From the IMG/VR virus record IMGVR_UViG_3300043788_000040, positions 106,564 through 170,563 of that record: a stretch of DNA of 64,000 nucleotides. One strand, written 5' to 3'. The notes under the pieces were generated by a model, which had not been told where the DNA came from, ran no database searches, and saw nothing but the letters and a program-made list of their open reading frames with translations. Positions within the stretch are counted from its first letter, which is position 1. Each line of letters opens with the position of its first letter. Of this stretch, positions 19,600 to 25,202 are shown piece after piece. The stretch comes from a virus. The position numbers were made by a program, and so were the translations under genes.

Positions 19600-20007
19600 A
19601 TGGAAAGACCATCACGAATCATTGACGCAATCCGTGCTGAACTCGGACCGCACCTCGTCAAATCCAACTACCGCAAATTTCTCCCCAAGGACGCCAAGCC
19701 GTCGTGGGGCACCTGCTACGTGGCGTCCGAAGCCCTGTACCACTTGTGGGGTAAAGAGAATGGCTTCACGCCCGTCCGCATACCGTACAAGGTCAATCGC
19801 ACTATGAACGGGCAGCACTGGTTCCTTGAGCATAGGCCTTCGGGGTTCCAAGTGGACATCACGGCAGACCAGTTCACAAAGTCCCCGCCGAACCGGGTGC
19901 CGGACTGGACGAAGGCGGTTCCAGCCGGATTCCTTACCAAAAAGCCCTCCAAACGTGCCCAACAGATCATTGACGTCGTCCGCAAAAAATTTCAGTTTGA
20001 TAATTGA
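19600..20007 (+). CDS. Papain/transglutaminase-like (YunG-type) Cys-His-Asp protein
   Basis: GTCYVASEALYHL...HWFLE...VDITADQF. Confidence 0.55.
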   Translation: MERPSRIIDAIRAELGPHLVKSNYRKFLPKDAKPSWGTCYVASEALYHLWGKENGFTPVRIPYKVNRTMNGQHWFLEHRPSGFQVDITADQFTKSPPNRVPDWTKAVPAGFLTKKPSKRAQQIIDVVRKKFQFDN

Positions 20008-20032
20008 CAGAATCCCCTAACTACGGTATTCT
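20004..20032 (+). promoter_or_regulatory. Near-consensus sigma70 promoter for the Y RNA-Ro60 operon
   Basis: TTGACA (20004-09), 17 nt spacer, TATTCT (20027-32). Confidence 0.8.
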
Positions 20033-20101
20033 CCCTTAGAGAGACTTTGACGGTGGCGTTTCCCTGCGTCCGCAGGGCGACATCCCCTCTTAGCAATTTT
20101 G

Positions 20102-20203
20102 GTCGTGCAGCGGTGTTTAGCTGACGGATACTTCTTCCAATGAACAGCCCGCTAGGGCTGCGGAGGCTTGCCTCCTTTCCGTTGCTTATTGTTCCCTGCC
20201 GAC
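20102..20203 (+). ncRNA. Y-RNA-like RNA 1 (CCA anticodon-like loop)
   Basis: Terminal stem GUCG-U-GCAG-C-GG / CC-CUGC-CGAC with bulged C; upper stem AGC.GACGGA/UCCGUU.GCU; UACUUC motif; three hairpins UUC-UUCCAAU-GAA, CAGCCC-GCUA-GGGCUG, GGAGG-CUUG-CCUCC; upstream of Ro60. Confidence 0.75.
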
Positions 20204-20212
20204 AATTCTTGT

Positions 20213-20338
20213 GTGCGGCGGTTTTTGGTTACGGTTACTTCTGCCTGTAAAGCAGACGAGCGGGGTTCGACCCCCCGGCGACCCGTGAGGGTCGTGGCGT
20301 GGGCCTAGTCAAATACCGAAGCCTATTGTTCCCCGCAC
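20213..20338 (+). ncRNA. Y-RNA-like RNA 2 containing a circularly permuted tRNA-Tyr(GUA)-like module
   Basis: GUGCGG-C-GG / CC-CCGCAC bulged-C stem; anticodon arm UCUGC-CUGUAAA-GCAGA; T arm CGGGG-UUCGACC-CCCCG; 7-bp acceptor GCGACCC-GUGA-GGGUCGU closed by a GNRA loop. Confidence 0.85.
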
Positions 20339-20456
20339 CTAATTTCACTCAGCACCAAACGGGACGCTTGCATGAGTACGCTGCCCGTGCTGTTGCCGAA
20401 ACATGGCGTAGAACCAAGCGATAGGCACAGCAAATTTTAGTTCAAAGAGGTGAACT

Positions 20457-21887
20457 ATGGCATCACTCAACACTGCAACGAAGACTGCAAAGACTGCAAT
20501 CAAGACCGCCGAGGGCGGCAAGGCTGTCAACATTGGCAAGGCGCTTCAGCTTCAGCGCTTGCTGAACGCATGCCTCCTGTGGGAGGACAACTTTTACTCT
20601 GACGGCGAGTCCGTCGCCAACGCGATGCGCAAGCTCGTGCGTGAGGTTCCTGCCGAGAAGGTCGCCGAACTCGCGATCAAGGCTCGTGAAGAGCAGAAGC
20701 TTCGCCACGCCCCGCTGCTCATCGTGTACGAGATGACCCTCGCCTCCAAGTCTCACCGTGAGCTTGTCGGGGAGACGCTCGCCCGTGTGGTTCAGCGCCC
20801 GGACGAGATCACTGAGTTCGTGGCGATCTACTACAAGCTTGGCGGCGGGAAGCGTCCGCTCTCCAAGCAGGTCAAGAAGGGTCTGGCCGCAGCCTTCAAC
20901 AAGTTCAACGAGTACTCGCTCGCAAAGTACAACCGTGATAAGGACATCAAGCTCGCGGACGTGCTGGCGCTCGTTCACCCGAAGCCGAAGGACAAGGAAC
21001 AGGGTCTTCTTTTCGCGAAGCTTGCGAACAAGGATCACCTGCCGAAGAAGACGAAGTACGCCGCGTTTCCGGTGGCTAACACCTACCGTGCGCTCGCAAA
21101 GAACTTCGTCGGCCTCGTCACGCCGGACACTTGGGAGGTCGCACTCTCTGGTGGAGCGGACAAGAAGGAGACTTTCACTCGTCTCATCGCCGAGGACAAG
21201 CTTGGTGGTCTGGCAATGATCCGCAACCTGCGCAACATGCAGGAAGCGGGCGTGTCGGATGCGGTCATCAAGCAGGGTCTCTCGCAGATGAACGCTGAGC
21301 GTGTGCTTCCGTTCCGCTTCATCTCGGCGGCGAAGTACGCTCCGAAGTTTGAGCAGCACCTTGAGGCAGCGATGTTCAAGTGCCTTGAGGGCTTCTCCAA
21401 GCTGAAGGGCAAGACTGTGCTGCTCGTGGACGTTTCTGGTTCCATGGACAACAAGGTCGGCGGCAAGTCTGATCTCCAGCGTGTGGACGCAGCCGTAGCT
21501 CTCGCAATGTTGCTCCGTGAGATCGGCGAGGACGTGGTTGTCTACTCGTTCTCGGACAATGAGGTTCTCGTTCCGACTCGTCGTGGCTTCGGCCTCGCTG
21601 AGGCGATCAAGAAGTCTCAGCGCCACTCCGGCACCTACCTTGGTCGCTCTTTGACTGCGGTGGCTCGTGCCGAGAATGACGCAGACCGTGTCATTGTGAT
21701 CTCGGACGAACAGGCTCACGATAACGTCTCCAACCCGTTCCACAAGACCGGGACGAAGGCATACATGCTCAACGTCGCTTCTGAAAAGAACGGCGTCGGC
21801 TACAAGAACGGCTGGAACCACATTGATGGCTGGTCTGAAGCTTGCGTTGACTATATCCTCGCGGAGGAAGGTTCTTCCCGCGACTAA
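20457..21887 (+). CDS. rsr: Ro60 / TROVE-domain RNA-binding protein with vWA domain
   Basis: LLWEDNFY, KLRHAPL, QRPDEITE, FNEYSLAKY, HPKP, TWEV.LS, IRNLRN, LPFRF; MIDAS DVSGS; SDEQ; IDGWSE. Confidence 0.95.
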   Translation: MASLNTATKTAKTAIKTAEGGKAVNIGKALQLQRLLNACLLWEDNFYSDGESVANAMRKLVREVPAEKVAELAIKAREEQKLRHAPLLIVYEMTLASKSHRELVGETLARVVQRPDEITEFVAIYYKLGGGKRPLSKQVKKGLAAAFNKFNEYSLAKYNRDKDIKLADVLALVHPKPKDKEQGLLFAKLANKDHLPKKTKYAAFPVANTYRALAKNFVGLVTPDTWEVALSGGADKKETFTRLIAEDKLGGLAMIRNLRNMQEAGVSDAVIKQGLSQMNAERVLPFRFISAAKYAPKFEQHLEAAMFKCLEGFSKLKGKTVLLVDVSGSMDNKVGGKSDLQRVDAAVALAMLLREIGEDVVVYSFSDNEVLVPTRRGFGLAEAIKKSQRHSGTYLGRSLTAVARAENDADRVIVISDEQAHDNVSNPFHKTGTKAYMLNVASEKNGVGYKNGWNHIDGWSEACVDYILAEEGSSRD

Positions 21888-21890
21888 CAC

Positions 21891-21918
21891 AAAGGGGGCA
21901 CCGAAAGTGCCCCCTTTT
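21891..21918 (+). terminator. Rho-independent terminator after Ro60
   Basis: AAAGGGGGCAC-CGAAA-GTGCCCCCTTTT. Confidence 0.85.
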
Positions 21919-22331: not shown

Positions 22332-22550
22332 CGGCACAGGGATCACCCTGCCGTTCATTTGCGGGTTCTGCCGGGATCGTGACGGCAACCCGACATTCGC
22401 GTGCCGCACGCAAAACGAGCGGAACCATCACGCGTTGGACTGCCCCGACAAGGGCTAAGATCACGGCGGGCGGTGCTAGAAACGCTTACTTCACCGTCAA
22501 AGCGAAAACAGCGTTTCACCTTTGTTCCCCCGCCATCAGTATTAGAAAAG

Positions 22551-22656
22551 ATCAGAGGGTCTGGAAAGAAAACGGAGAATGGGACGCCCAGACAAGCACC
22601 ACGGGCTGATACCTCACCCGCCGTCTGAAGAGGCTCCCATTCATGGTGGGAGCCTC
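22551..22656 (+). ncRNA. Candidate small structured RNA or leader
   Basis: Follows GTATTAG at 22539; closing TCAGA/TCTGA, internal GTCTGG/CCAGAC and CGGG/CCCG stems, then 10-bp hairpin GAGGCTCCCA/TGGGAGCCTC. Confidence 0.4.
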
Positions 22657-22664
22657 GGTACTTT

Positions 22665-23213
22665 ATGGGCATAATTTACAAAGCCACCAATACCGTTAAC
22701 GGCAAAGTCTATGTCGGCAAGACGGTACTCACCCTCTCTCAACGCATCCGCAAGCACCAAGCCGTAAGGAAACATCCTCGCCAAGTCATCCAGAAAGCTC
22801 TCGCTAAATACGGATTTGACAAGTTCACGTGGACAGTGTTGGAGGCCGTATCGGACGAAGCCCTAAACGACGCAGAGAAACGGTGGATTGCTGCTCTCAA
22901 CTCTACGCACACGAACATCGGGTATAACCGATCTGAGGGTGGAGACGGAGGTCGGCGAACTGTTCCAGACTCTCCTGAGACTAGACGCAAAAAGTCCGTG
23001 GGTATGCGCGGAAAGCAGAATGCAAAAGGACTTAGAAAAACTCCAATGTCACAGGCTCATAAAGACGCCATAGCACTCGCCAATAAAAATCCTGAGAATG
23101 GACGTATTCAAGGACGCAAAAATACTGAAAACGGACACATGCAAAAAATGCGACATATCCGTTGGCATGTTCACCGTGGTATTATTATGCCTAGCTGTTC
23201 TTTGTGCCAATGA
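22665..23213 (+). CDS. Free-standing GIY-YIG homing endonuclease (Seg-like)
   Basis: GIIYKATNTVNGKVYVGKT...R...H...YGFDKF...E...GYN..EGG; NUMOD3-like SPETRRKKS; more AT-rich than neighbours. Confidence 0.9.
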   Translation: MGIIYKATNTVNGKVYVGKTVLTLSQRIRKHQAVRKHPRQVIQKALAKYGFDKFTWTVLEAVSDEALNDAEKRWIAALNSTHTNIGYNRSEGGDGGRRTVPDSPETRRKKSVGMRGKQNAKGLRKTPMSQAHKDAIALANKNPENGRIQGRKNTENGHMQKMRHIRWHVHRGIIMPSCSLCQ

Positions 23214-24725: not shown

Positions 24726-24785
24726 CGACTTAAATCACTAGCCAAAACTCGTCTCTTGGCTGTATACTACGGCTGGAGGCGACTC

Positions 24786-25202
24786 ATGTACATTGGGACA
24801 ATCGTCAACGACGGCGAGATCAAGGACGTTGACCGCTTCGTCGTCAACACCGTAACTGGCAAGAAGCTTGACCTGAATGCAAGTCTCAAGATCGTGAACC
24901 ACTCCCCCACGGGCTTTTGCTGGGGGTACGCAGGTTCGGGTCCAGCGCAACTCGCGCTCGCCATTATGCTTGACTACTTCAAGGGCGACCGTGAACGTGC
25001 CCTGTCGTTGTATCAAGATTTCAAGTTCAAGGTCATTGCCCGGCTTCCGATGGACAACGACTTCTCGCTCACCGACCGGGAAGTAGAGAACGCCATCACC
25101 GAGATTGACATTGCGAGGATGCGAGCATCCGAAGGCTCGCCCTCCCGAATCAAGGACGACCCCGACGAAATGGAAAGACTGATTCAACGGGATAGCCAGT
25201 AA
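24786..25202 (+). CDS. DUF6166-like protein
   Basis: NHSPTGFCWGYAGSGPAQLALAIM...YQDFKFKVIARLP; SD GGAGG and TATACT promoter upstream. Confidence 0.75.
   Translation: MYIGTIVNDGEIKDVDRFVVNTVTGKKLDLNASLKIVNHSPTGFCWGYAGSGPAQLALAIMLDYFKGDRERALSLYQDFKFKVIARLPMDNDFSLTDREVENAITEIDIARMRASEGSPSRIKDDPDEMERLIQRDSQ

What the first reader, a model, noticed from the sequence alone, without database searches (positions are those of the whole stretch)
20004..21918. Phage Ro60 operon with tandem Y-like RNAs displaying different anticodon loops
Seen: one transcription unit (TTGACA-17-TATTCT promoter to terminator 21891-21918) holds two homologous RNAs and Ro60. Both RNAs share a terminal helix with a bulged C (GCAG-C-GG/CC-CUGC vs GCGG-C-GG/CC-CCGC, a compensatory A-U/G-C change), an identical UAUUGUU internal-loop strand, and a UACUUC motif leading into a hairpin with a 7-nt loop. 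That loop differs: UUCCAAU (CCA, Trp-like) vs CUGUAAA (GUA, Tyr-like). Known: Ro60 binds a bulged-C helix in Y RNAs, and characterised YrlA RNAs mimic the D/T/acceptor arms but lack an anticodon arm. Inference: this is a modular scaffold-plus-cargo system in which Ro60 presents anticodon stem-loops. They could be decoys for host anticodon nucleases (retron Ec78 PtuAB and colicin E5 target tRNA-Tyr; some VapCs target tRNA-Trp) or bait for repair/modification enzymes.
Basis: partly seen in the sequence, partly recalled or inferred. Interest (0 to 1): 0.92.

Follow-up and report, generated by a model that had tools for sequence, protein, structure and literature searches.

The report
Phage Ro60 with anticodon-mimic Y RNAs
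A giant soil phage encodes the ring-shaped RNA-binding protein Ro60 and three partner "Y RNAs", a pairing already known from phages. One of these RNAs displays a faithful copy of a tRNA anticodon arm whose three "anticodon" letters change between close relatives, a feature I found in no paper I read.

Summary
A TROVE+vWA Ro60 gene (20457-21887) is preceded by two co-oriented structured RNAs that share a bulged-C helix, the strand UAUUGUU and the motif UACUUC.

These are Y RNAs, a known kind. Chen et al. 2014 reported YrlA-like RNAs next to phage Ro60 genes. A 2025 paper showed that Thermus phage phiLo Ro60 binds two upstream Y-like RNAs. Tandem Y RNAs beside a phage Ro60 are therefore not new.

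RNA2 is a YrlA-type tRNA mimic with a T arm, a closed acceptor hairpin and a shrunken D arm. The new part concerns its first hairpin, the element published as the "V arm". It sits in exact tRNA register, 17 nt then a 4-5 nt variable loop before the T stem. In 117 distinct homologues it keeps U33 (91%), purine-37 (98%) and the tRNA rule G36-G37.

Close relatives keep the Ro60 "handle" nearly unchanged, but the triplet varies: GUA, GUU, GUG, UAG.

RNA1's "Trp-like" hairpin has only 3 bp and is unstable alone, so that reading is weak.

The decoy function is untested.

This scan has met the same theme on other phage DNA.

The parts
20004..20032 (+). Sigma-70-like promoter (TTGACA, 17 nt, TATTCT) ahead of RNA1
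   Evidence: Consensus scan, 10 of 12 matches. It is a motif match only; its function is inferred.
20105..20202 (+). RNA1. A Y RNA with the family handle (GCAG-C-GG/CC-CUGC, GGUG..AG, UAUUGUU) and UACUUC at 20129-20134. It has a weak mini-hairpin UUC-UUCCAAU-GAA (loop 20135-20141) and two cargo hairpins (20145-20160 and 20162-20175). It has no T arm.
   Evidence: Model R1 scores 18 bits, E 0.02, full length. MFE -37.1 kcal/mol, z -2.7. Orthologues in relatives keep the handle, and the two cargo hairpins change compensatorily.
20211..20339 (+). RNA2. A YrlA-type tRNA-mimic Y RNA. Terminal helix 20213-20221 with 20331-20338 (bulged C at 20219), entry stem 20227-20235 with 20315-20323, UACUUC at 20236-20241.
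   Evidence: R1 17.4 bits, E 0.03. R2 (long-type model) 20.1 bits, E 1e-3 to 4e-5. Rfam tRNA model 20 bits, aligning the anticodon and T arms. Orthologues in relatives.
20240..20256 (+). RNA2 anticodon-arm mimic: UCUGC-CUGUAAA-GCAGA, with U33 at 20246, GUA at 20247-20249 and A37 at 20250. It is followed by a 4-nt variable loop, CGAG (20257-20260).
   Evidence: Folds alone at -5.2 kcal/mol. It lies in tRNA register before the T stem. The loop is identical to that of the phage's own tRNA-Tyr. Relatives carry CUGUUAA, CUGUGAA and other loops at the same place.
20261..20277 (+). RNA2 T arm: CGGGG-UUCGACC-CCCCG
   Evidence: Aligned to the T arm by Rfam tRNA and by R2.
20278..20295 (+). RNA2 closed acceptor-like hairpin (7 bp, loop GUGA)
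   Evidence: Fold and R2 alignment. In homologues all 5 modelled pairs covary.
20296..20305 (+). RNA2 shrunken D-arm substitute (GGC-GUGG-GCC), followed by UAGUCAAAUA
   Evidence: R2 skips the canonical D arm here. The element is conserved as GGC-UUGG-GCC UAGUC in relatives L289, L291, L294 and L296.
20457..21887 (+). Ro60 orthologue (476 aa; TROVE ring plus vWA)
   Evidence: Pfam PF05731 63.1 bits, PF25045 30.5 bits, PF13519 38.7 bits. PHROG 850 E 1.4e-48. phmmer E 3.8e-32 to Thermus phage phiLo Ro60 (PDB 9KOP/9L5Y) over residues 12-467.
21891..21918 (+). Intrinsic-terminator-like hairpin followed by UUUU, after Ro60
   Evidence: -20.4 kcal/mol, z -4.6.
22465..22534 (+). RNA3. A third, short Y RNA with the same handle (GGCGGG-C-GG / CC-CCCGCC), UACUUC at 22487-22492 and UUUGUUCC.
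   Evidence: R1 52 bits (it is a seed member). MFE z -3.4. Orthologues downstream of Ro60 in 8 relatives show entry-stem covariation.

Best explanation
The locus encodes a phage Ro60-Y RNA ribonucleoprotein.

- Handle. The Ro60 ring binds the conserved 'handle' shared by three co-oriented Y RNAs. The handle is a terminal helix with a bulged pyrimidine, a GGYG..AG / YUKUUCC internal loop and an entry stem that ends in UACUUC.
- Cargo. Each RNA displays a different cargo on that handle. RNA2's cargo is a permuted tRNA body of the YrlA type: a complete anticodon-arm mimic (GUA loop) in tRNA register, then a variable loop, a T arm, a closed acceptor hairpin and a mini D arm. RNA1 and RNA3 are shorter YrlB-like partners.
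- Mechanism, by analogy. In characterised Ro60 particles (D. radiodurans, Salmonella, Thermus phage phiLo) the RNA tethers Ro60 to a second factor such as host PNPase. Here the tRNA-shaped cargo, including the anticodon loop, is the surface that recruits or occupies a tRNA-recognising protein.

Shown here: the RNAs, their family, their structure and the anticodon-loop grammar. Inferred: Ro60 binding, transcription and processing, and the identity of the partner.
For: - Protein identity. Ro60 is identified by Pfam, PHROGs and PDB sequence matches.
- Handle family. 14 of 14 pairs covary. There are only three hits in 88 kb of this genome, all at the Ro60 gene. There are 48 of 48 hits on the Ro60 strand in other Ro60 loci, and 34 more in close relatives.
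- Long-type architecture. All five helices are supported (92% of cells paired against 67% in shuffles; 18 of 25 pairs change on both sides). RNA2 matches this model.
- Anticodon-arm register. With a 5-nt variable loop, 17 of 41 closure-verified units have at least 4 of 5 stem pairs, against 1-11 in other registers.
- Loop grammar. In 117 distinct 17-mers, U33 is present in 107, purine-37 in 115 and A38 in 101. G36 is followed by G37 in 31 of 34 loops, against G37 in 2 of 83 loops with another base at 36 (Fisher 1.5e-22). There are 37 different triplets.
- Constant stem. The stem's outer pairs (UUC/GAG) are constant and the inner pairs covary. The loops are therefore not simply imported together with tRNA stems.
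- Micro-evolution. The same handle and stem carry GUA, GUU, GUG, UAG and other triplets among relatives of this phage. Two Xanthomonas phages differ GUU against UGU on an identical stem.
- Published precedent. YrlA RNAs lie next to Ro60 in 22 phages (PMC4201824). phiLo Ro60 binds two upstream Y-like RNAs and, with them, host PNPase (PMC12135203).
Against: - There is no expression, processing or binding data for this phage.
- Rfam's YrlA model (RF02553) does not detect RNA1-3 even at E 10.
- The literal Ro-binding motif GNCGAAN0-1G is absent here (GGCGGUG / GGCGGUU instead).
- RNA2's D arm is degenerate, so a full tRNA L-shape is uncertain.
- About half of the T-arm-bearing homologues lack the anticodon-like hairpin. 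It is therefore not essential to the family.
- The second pattern scan fixed the hairpin length and the variable-loop sequence, which biases the pooled sample for register. It does not bias it for loop letters.
Confidence: 0.75

Rival explanations
1. Relic reading. The anticodon-like hairpin is an inherited or repeatedly re-acquired leftover of the tRNA genes from which YrlA-type RNAs arose (the dimeric-tRNA origin model). It has no role of its own. The RNAs work only through the handle and the T/D elbow, for example by tethering Ro60 to host PNPase.
For: - The long-type model also hits junctions of tandem tRNA genes in this phage's tRNA clusters. This fits the dimeric-tRNA origin proposed by Wolin's group.
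- The triplet spectrum correlates with that of real tRNAs in the same loci (Spearman 0.45, p 2e-4).
- About half of the homologues lack the hairpin. Some relatives have deleted the whole cargo (L288 and L295).
- Salmonella YrlA works without it.
Against: - U33, purine-37 and A38 are kept in about 90% of 117 distinct hairpins, while positions 34-36 are free.
- The G36-G37 coupling is kept although these RNAs cannot decode.
- The stem is set by the scaffold (UUC..GAG), not by a donor tRNA, so wholesale copying is unlikely.
- Triplet changes occur by point substitution on an unchanged stem.
- The commonest tRNA anticodons (CAU, CCA) are almost absent, and unused ones (AUG, AUU) occur.
Confidence: 0.25
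2. Ro60 presents anticodon-loop mimics as decoys or bait for host enzymes that read anticodon loops. These would be anticodon nucleases of defence systems, or loop-modifying enzymes. The loops diversify in an arms race.
For: - The loop letters vary on a constant scaffold between close relatives.
- In this phage's lineage four of the seven 7-nt RNA2 loop variants are C-U-G-U-N-A-A (GUA, GUU twice on different stems, GUG). From established knowledge, U33-G34-U35 is shared by the queuosine-family tRNAs that colicin E5 cleaves and that Tgt modifies.
- GUU is also the commonest triplet overall.
- A Ro60-like protein of phage Bas63 was found experimentally to counter the Ppl defence system (PMC11482910).
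- Bacterial Ro60/YrlA genes sit in an operon induced by damaged tRNAs (PMC7790460, seen by title and abstract only).
Against: - No nuclease, ligase, kinase or repair gene is adjacent.
- The GUN run may be simple descent with change at one position.
- 37 different triplets across phages argue against a single target.
- There is no biochemical evidence of any kind.
- Ppl is not known to be a tRNA nuclease.
Confidence: 0.15
3. Split-tRNA reading. [quoted passage not shown] The result is a two-piece tRNA-like molecule with a free CCA end and a real anticodon arm, which could be charged or enter the ribosome.
For: - RNA2 has a 7-bp acceptor-like stem stacked on a T arm, plus an anticodon arm.
- RNase P cleavage and CCA addition are reported for M. 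smegmatis YrlA (PMC4201824, section heading and passage).
Against: - The D arm is degenerate.
- The variable loop has 4 nt, whereas bacterial tRNA-Tyr is class II.
- Triplets such as AUG, AUU and ACC are unused in bacteria.
- The phage already has a normal tRNA-Tyr.
Confidence: 0.03
4. Leader reading. These are not separate RNAs but a structured 5' leader of the Ro60 mRNA that regulates its translation or stability.
For: Both RNAs lie between a promoter-like site and the Ro60 start, with no strong terminator between them.
Against: The same unit recurs downstream of Ro60 (RNA3) and inside tRNA clusters 48-56 kb away. Other phages carry arrays of 2-5 units on either side of the gene.
Confidence: 0.03

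Closest known systems
YrlA (Y RNA-like A; Rfam RF02553; Chen et al. 2014, PMC4201824; crystal structure Wang et al. 2018, bioRxiv 10.1101/312249)
   Same: - It is encoded beside Ro60 on the same strand.
- Its 5' and 3' ends pair in a Ro-binding stem.
- Its tRNA-like module runs in the permuted order T arm, closed acceptor hairpin, D arm.
- A conserved YUAY precedes an optional stem-loop ('V') upstream of the T arm.
- It has been reported in 22 phages, including CcrColossus.
   Different: - The Rfam model does not detect RNA1-3.
- The literal GNCGAA motif is absent.
- RNA2's D arm is reduced to a 3-bp hairpin.
- Salmonella YrlA and the Rfam consensus have no hairpin at the 'V' position.
- Here and in homologues that hairpin has anticodon-arm register and loop grammar. 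The papers I read do not state this; they model it as a variable arm.
Thermus phage phiLo Ro60 with Yrl1 and Yrl2 (NAR 2025, PMC12135203; PDB 9KOP, 9L5Y)
   Same: It is a phage Ro60 (E 3.8e-32 to the window protein) with two Y-like RNAs directly upstream of the gene. Binding was shown by gel shift and cryo-EM, and a ternary complex forms with host PNPase.
   Different: The phiLo RNAs are described as stem-bulge-stem RNAs with a CGAA motif. The paper does not use the words anticodon or tRNA-like. No third downstream RNA is reported.
YrlB (Salmonella) and other short Y RNAs
   Same: RNA1 and RNA3 share the handle with the tRNA-like partner, lack T and D arms, and are encoded in tandem with it.
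   Different: There is no sequence similarity beyond the handle logic. According to Chen et al., YrlB orthologues were found only in Salmonella.
D. radiodurans Yrn1 in the Ro60-Y RNA-PNPase machine (RYPER)
   Same: It is the model for the proposed mechanism: the Y RNA tethers Ro60 to an effector. Chen et al. note a possible 'anticodon arm' in Yrn1 with a 5-bp stem.
   Different: The Yrn1 loop has 6 nt and a different orientation of the arms. No variable triplets are described.
tRNA genes and tandem (dimeric) tRNA transcripts
   Same: Positions 27-65 of a tRNA (anticodon arm, variable loop, T arm) are reproduced. tRNA finders and GenBank records label such units as tRNA-Gln (CcrColossus) and tRNA-Thr (10KY502B).
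   Different: There are no free acceptor ends. ARAGORN finds no tRNA in the window, and the Rfam tRNA model scores 20 bits, below the 29-bit threshold. The Ro handle is inserted between the D arm and the anticodon arm.

Membership tests
Ro60 / TROVE protein | TROVE (HEAT-repeat ring) domain | tested here: met
   PF05731, 63.1 bits against a cut-off of 23. PHROG 850 E 1.4e-48 over residues 4-469.
Ro60 / TROVE protein | C-terminal von Willebrand A domain of the Ro60 type | tested here: met
   PF25045, 30.5 bits (cut-off 27.7), and PF13519, 38.7 bits.
Ro60 / TROVE protein | Sequence relationship to a Ro60 with a solved ring structure | tested here: met
   phmmer E 3.8e-32 to phiLo Ro60 (9KOP/9L5Y) over residues 12-467. 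The fold itself was not predicted here.
Y RNA (general) | Encoded close to Ro60 on the same strand | tested here: met
   RNA1 and RNA2 end 255 and 118 nt upstream of the Ro60 start, and RNA3 starts 578 nt downstream of the Ro60 stop, all on the + strand. All 48 hits in other loci lie on the Ro60 strand.
Y RNA (general) | 5' and 3' ends form a stem with a bulged helix, next to an internal loop | tested here: met
   Folds. Family covariation in 14 of 14 pairs, with a bulged pyrimidine between the fourth and fifth pair.
Y RNA (general) | Bound by Ro60 | not testable with these tools
   Supported by analogy only. phiLo Ro60 binds its two upstream Y-like RNAs (PMC12135203).
YrlA (RF02553) | Reaches Rfam's gathering score (69 bits) | tested here: not met
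   No RF02553 match for RNA1-3, even at E 10. A different RNA of the same phage, outside the window (G000 79027-79139), scores 45 bits.
YrlA (RF02553) | GNCGAAN0-1G motif near the 5' end | tested here: not met
   The window RNAs read GGCGGUG (RNA1 and RNA3) and GGCGGUU (RNA2). Homologues in other phages do carry GGCGAAG or GGUGAAG.
YrlA (RF02553) | T arm with a tRNA-like T loop | tested here: met
   RNA2 has CGGGG-UUCGACC-CCCCG. RNA1 and RNA3 have none.
YrlA (RF02553) | [quoted passage not shown] | tested here: met
   RNA2 20278-20295, 7 bp with loop GUGA.
YrlA (RF02553) | Nearly invariant D arm (GCUCAGUUGGUAGAGC type) | tested here: not met
   The R2 alignment skips the D arm in RNA2. A 3-bp hairpin, GGC-GUGG-GCC, stands in its place and is conserved in four relatives.
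YrlA (RF02553) | Conserved YUAY at the start of the 'V' region | tested here: met
   UUAC in RNA2 and RNA3, AUAC in RNA1, as part of the motif UACUUC, which was the search anchor for the homologues and is unchanged in every aligned unit.
tRNA | Cloverleaf with paired 5'/3' acceptor ends, detectable by tRNA finders | tested here: not met
   ARAGORN finds no tRNA in the window. Rfam tRNA scores 20 bits, below the 29-bit threshold, with a mismatched acceptor.
Anticodon stem-loop geometry (a resemblance, not a family) | 5-bp stem, 7-nt loop, U33, purine-37, placed 4-5 nt before the T stem | tested here: met
   Met in RNA2. Among homologues: U33 in 107 of 117, R37 in 115 of 117, and G36-G37 coupling with p 1.5e-22. 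RNA1 has only a 3-bp stem with no T arm behind it, so it does not meet this feature.

The most novel reading that the evidence does not exclude
Phage Ro60 particles are a programmable display platform. A constant Ro60 handle carries hypervariable anticodon-loop mimics that act as decoys, sensors or inhibitors of host proteins that read anticodon loops. Candidates are the anticodon nucleases of defence systems, and Tgt or other loop-modifying enzymes. The loops diversify in an arms race with those proteins. In this phage's lineage the loop is mostly U33-G34-U35-N36, the loop of the queuosine-family tRNAs.
Probability: 0.2. Interest if true: 0.85.

Novelty: new variant of a known kind. Interest (0 to 1): 0.55.

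Why it matters
Ro60-Y RNA particles are conserved from bacteria to humans. Yet the partner of the tRNA-like domain of bacterial and phage Y RNAs is still unknown.

Many phage Y RNAs carry a grammatically correct anticodon loop on a fixed scaffold, and its triplet changes between near-identical phages. This gives a concrete, testable handle on what these particles recognise, pointing to a factor that reads anticodon loops. It ties them to the current picture of tRNA-centred phage-host conflict.

There is also a practical point. These units are being annotated as tRNA genes in phage records: tRNA-Gln in CcrColossus and tRNA-Thr in Xanthomonas phage 10KY502B. That inflates phage tRNA counts.

If the hairpin is only a relic, the finding is still a well-documented new branch of a known RNA family.

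Tried and rejected
- Rfam at gathering thresholds: nothing in the window. In permissive mode only a weak tRNA match inside RNA2 appears. RF02553 exists but is narrow. It misses RNA1-3 and scores even canonical phage units below its threshold. Rfam's silence is therefore uninformative.
- My first two structural scanners for units were too permissive, giving dozens of false hits in the phage genome. I used only units that also had a T arm, or that a covariance model confirmed.
- Energy-based choice of the 'best hairpin' picked non-tRNA registers in several units. I replaced it with a register-fixed test.
- For short-type units the apical hairpin is marginal (about 0 kcal/mol) and its loop has 4-12 nt. 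I dropped the idea that all family members display anticodon arms.
- Searching genome contigs with the Ro60 protein gave only two distant bacterial loci. I therefore could not compare with bacterial YrlA 'V' arms. The supplement of Chen et al. is not held.
- The Mycobacterium phage Rey hit was a plain tRNA cluster.
- The 2020 Annual Review on bacterial Ro60 could not be read.
- Neighbouring proteins gave no RNA-repair link.
- A MAFFT alignment of RNA1 orthologues misaligned the cargo hairpins, so per-pair counts there are unreliable. The compensatory changes were read directly.


Full report
**What is there**

The window is the last 64 kb of a 170.5-kb IMG/VR phage record, estimated 54% complete. 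The ORF at 20457-21887 is a Ro60 orthologue.
- Pfam gives TROVE at 63 bits, Ro60-type vWA at 30.5 bits and VWA_2 at 38.7 bits.
- PHROG 850 'RNA-binding protein' matches at E 1.4e-48.
- phmmer gives E 3.8e-32, over residues 12-467, to the solved Ro60 of Thermus phage phiLo.

Upstream lie a promoter-like site (20004-20032) and two structured RNAs. Downstream lies a strong terminator hairpin (21891-21918, -20.4 kcal/mol).

**Is it real?**

UACUUC, preceded by GGYG..AG and followed later by YUKUUCC, recurs one to five times next to Ro60 genes in 18 viral contigs and in Brevundimonas phage Gurke. I built a covariance model (R1) from 16 short units of other phages.
- Both helices covary: 14 of 14 pairs change on both sides, and 88% of cells pair against 58% in shuffles.
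- In 88 kb of this phage's genome, R1 finds exactly three places. They are RNA1 (18 bits), RNA2 (17.4 bits) and a third unit, RNA3, at 22465-22534 (52 bits; it is a seed member).
- In 28 other Ro60 loci it finds 48 units, all on the Ro60 strand.

A metagenome scan then gave relatives of this very phage, with Ro60 64-99% identical. All contigs that reach far enough upstream keep RNA1 and RNA2; those that reach past the gene (Ro60 79-99% identical) also show RNA3 downstream. The phage also carries a more canonical YrlA-like RNA, and another handle-bearing unit, inside its tRNA clusters outside the window.

**What the RNAs are**

These are Y RNAs. Chen et al. 2014 (PMC4201824) described YrlA as follows:
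- a Ro-binding stem;
- a permuted tRNA-like module with a T arm, a closed acceptor-like stem and a D arm;
- a conserved YUAY;
- in many species, a less conserved stem-loop 'V' upstream of the T arm, which they modelled as a variable arm.

They found such RNAs in 254 bacteria and 22 phages. Long units in my loci have exactly this layout, with a canonical D arm. All five helices are supported. Rfam's YrlA model gives full-length hits below its threshold to several of them.

RNA2 has the same order of parts. It matches my long-type model R2 at 20 bits, but the D arm is skipped. In its place is a 3-bp hairpin, which is conserved in four relatives. RNA1 and RNA3 have the handle but no T arm, as YrlB does.

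Tandem Y-like RNAs upstream of a phage Ro60 are also already published with biochemistry. phiLo Ro60 binds Yrl1 and Yrl2 and forms a complex with host PNPase (PMC12135203).

**The anticodon question**

In RNA2 the hairpin after UACUUC is UCUGC-CUGUAAA-GCAGA. It is followed by 4 nt and then the T stem, which is the layout of tRNA positions 27-65. I tested whether this register is general.
- Register. Among 41 units verified by handle closure and a T arm, a 17-nt window placed 5 nt before the T stem has at least 4 of 5 stem pairs in 17 units, and 15 of these also have U33 and a purine at 37. Other registers give 1-11 and 0-6.
- Loop grammar. Pooling two pattern scans with the Ro60 loci gave 174 distinct units, 133 with such a stem and 117 distinct 17-mers. 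U33 occurs in 107, purine-37 in 115 and A38 in 101.
- G36-G37 coupling. Position 37 is G almost only when position 36 is G: 31 of 34 against 2 of 83 (Fisher 1.5e-22). Real tRNAs follow this rule. Linking it to m1G37 is my own knowledge.
- Triplets. There are 37 different triplets, led by GUU, GCU, UGG and UGU.

The second scan fixed the hairpin length and the variable-loop sequence. It therefore biases the sample for register, but not for loop letters. The stem's outer three pairs come from the conserved UACUUC and its GAG partner, and the inner two pairs covary.

The Rfam YrlA consensus and the Salmonella crystal structure have no hairpin here. There the entry stem takes the place of the anticodon stem, and YrlA 'lacks the anticodon loop'.

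I conclude that the published 'V arm' is, in these phage RNAs, an anticodon-arm homologue or mimic. I found no statement of this in the papers I could read. The 2020 review was not available.

**Modularity and change over short distances**

Three Xanthomonas phages have nearly identical handles. Yet one unit's cargo is replaced, another's is deleted, and the loop of the canonical unit reads CUGUUAA in two phages and CUUGUAA in the third, on an identical stem.

Among relatives of the window phage, the RNA2 loops are as follows:

| Loop | Where |
|---|---|
| CUGUAAA | window, L284, L296 |
| CUGUUAA | L289, on the same stem |
| CUGUUAA | L286/L298 and L290/L293, on another stem |
| CUGUGAA | L337 |
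| CUUAGAA | L297 |
| CUAUGAA | L294 |
| UGCUUAA | L291/L292 |

L287 has a degenerate version, and L288/L295 have lost the cargo.

RNA1's mini-hairpin keeps UUC..GAA, while its loop varies: UUCCAAU, UUCGAU, CUCAUAC, UUCAAAC, UUACCUA. But the stem has 3-4 bp and the hairpin is unstable alone. Short-type loops in other phages have 4-12 nt. The 'Trp-like' label is therefore not justified, although the loop is clearly a variable site. RNA3's apical loop is mostly constant.

**Function**

Nothing here shows function. The best-supported mechanism comes by analogy with characterised Ro60 particles. Ro60 binds the handle, and the cargo recruits or occupies a second factor. For RNA2 that factor should recognise tRNA, including the anticodon loop.

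Three observations argue that the loop is under selection rather than a passive relic:
- U33, R37 and A38 are kept while positions 34-36 are free.
- The G36-G37 coupling is kept in RNAs that cannot decode.
- The stem is fixed by the scaffold.

Three observations argue the other way:
- Half of the homologues lack the hairpin.
- The triplet spectrum partly follows that of phage tRNAs (Spearman 0.45).
- The long-type model also hits tandem tRNA junctions, consistent with the dimeric-tRNA origin model.

The decoy idea remains open. The run of GUN loops in this lineage matches the loop shared by the tRNAs that colicin E5 cleaves and that Tgt modifies (my own knowledge). A Ro60-like protein of phage Bas63 counters the Ppl defence system (PMC11482910). 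But no repair or nuclease gene is adjacent, and the GUN run may be simple descent.

**Verdict**

The system is a new variant of a known kind, namely phage Ro60 with YrlA/YrlB-type Y RNAs. The noteworthy addition is the anticodon-arm register and grammar of the 'V' hairpin, and its rapid change on a constant handle.

Earlier notes of this scan describe the same theme in other phages and in this genome's tRNA cluster. I took from them the Rfam accession RF02553, and I checked it myself.

Noticed in passing
G000:C1:79011-79154 (27.5 kb before the window start): A more canonical YrlA-like RNA with the same handle, a full D arm (GUAGCUCAGUGGUAGAGCG) and no anticodon-like hairpin. It sits among Met/Phe tRNA genes, 48 kb from Ro60. 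Rfam RF02553 scores 45 bits (below the gathering score of 69) and R2 scores 52 bits.
   Followed up: partly
G000:C1:~70250-70400 (Leu tRNA cluster, outside the window): Another unit with GCGGUG..UACUUC, followed by a 7-bp hairpin with a 9-nt loop and a T arm. R1 does not detect it with default filters.
   Followed up: no
L148 1553-1620 (Caulobacter phage CcrColossus); L272 332-399 (Xanthomonas phage 10KY502B): GenBank 'tRNA-Gln' and 'tRNA-Thr' features overlap Y RNA units. The called anticodon is the Y RNA's hairpin loop (AUCUGGA and CUUGUAA). A 'tRNA-Ser' just upstream of Ro60 in Brevundimonas phage Gurke (L020 2216-2290) may be the same kind of call.
   Followed up: partly
L146 1744-2347 (Xanthomonas phage Olaya, 43.7 kb genome): Five Y RNA units in a row directly upstream of Ro60 in a small phage, none of them annotated. 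One unit reads UUUCAUC instead of UACUUC.
   Followed up: partly
window 22665-23213 (+): A GIY-YIG homing endonuclease gene (Pfam 35.8 bits, PHROG 314 E 2e-29) starts right after RNA3 and a strong hairpin at about 22631-22660.
   Followed up: no
window 20033-20104 and 20340-20456: A GC-rich hairpin (CCCUGCG-UC-CGCAGGG, about 20062-20077) lies between the promoter-like site and RNA1. A further structured stretch lies between RNA2 and the Ro60 start. Neither matches the Y RNA models.
   Followed up: no
L140 and L141 (tRNA clusters of G000): The long-type Y RNA model R2 scores 20-34 bits on junctions of adjacent tRNA genes (anticodon arm to T arm of one tRNA, then acceptor to D arm of the next). 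This is a direct illustration of the dimeric-tRNA origin model.
   Followed up: no
L020 5792-6137 (Brevundimonas phage Gurke): A permuted tmRNA (RF04321, 57.7 bits, above the gathering score) lies 2 kb downstream of the Ro60 gene and is not annotated in the record.
   Followed up: no
window 24756-25202 (+): A DUF6166 protein (85 bits) of unknown function.
   Followed up: no
G000:C1:68467-68554: The phage's own tRNA-Tyr has the anticodon arm GCAGA-CUGUAAA-UCUGC. RNA2 has the same loop, and the same two stem strands in swapped order (UCUGC..GCAGA). This may be coincidence.
   Followed up: no
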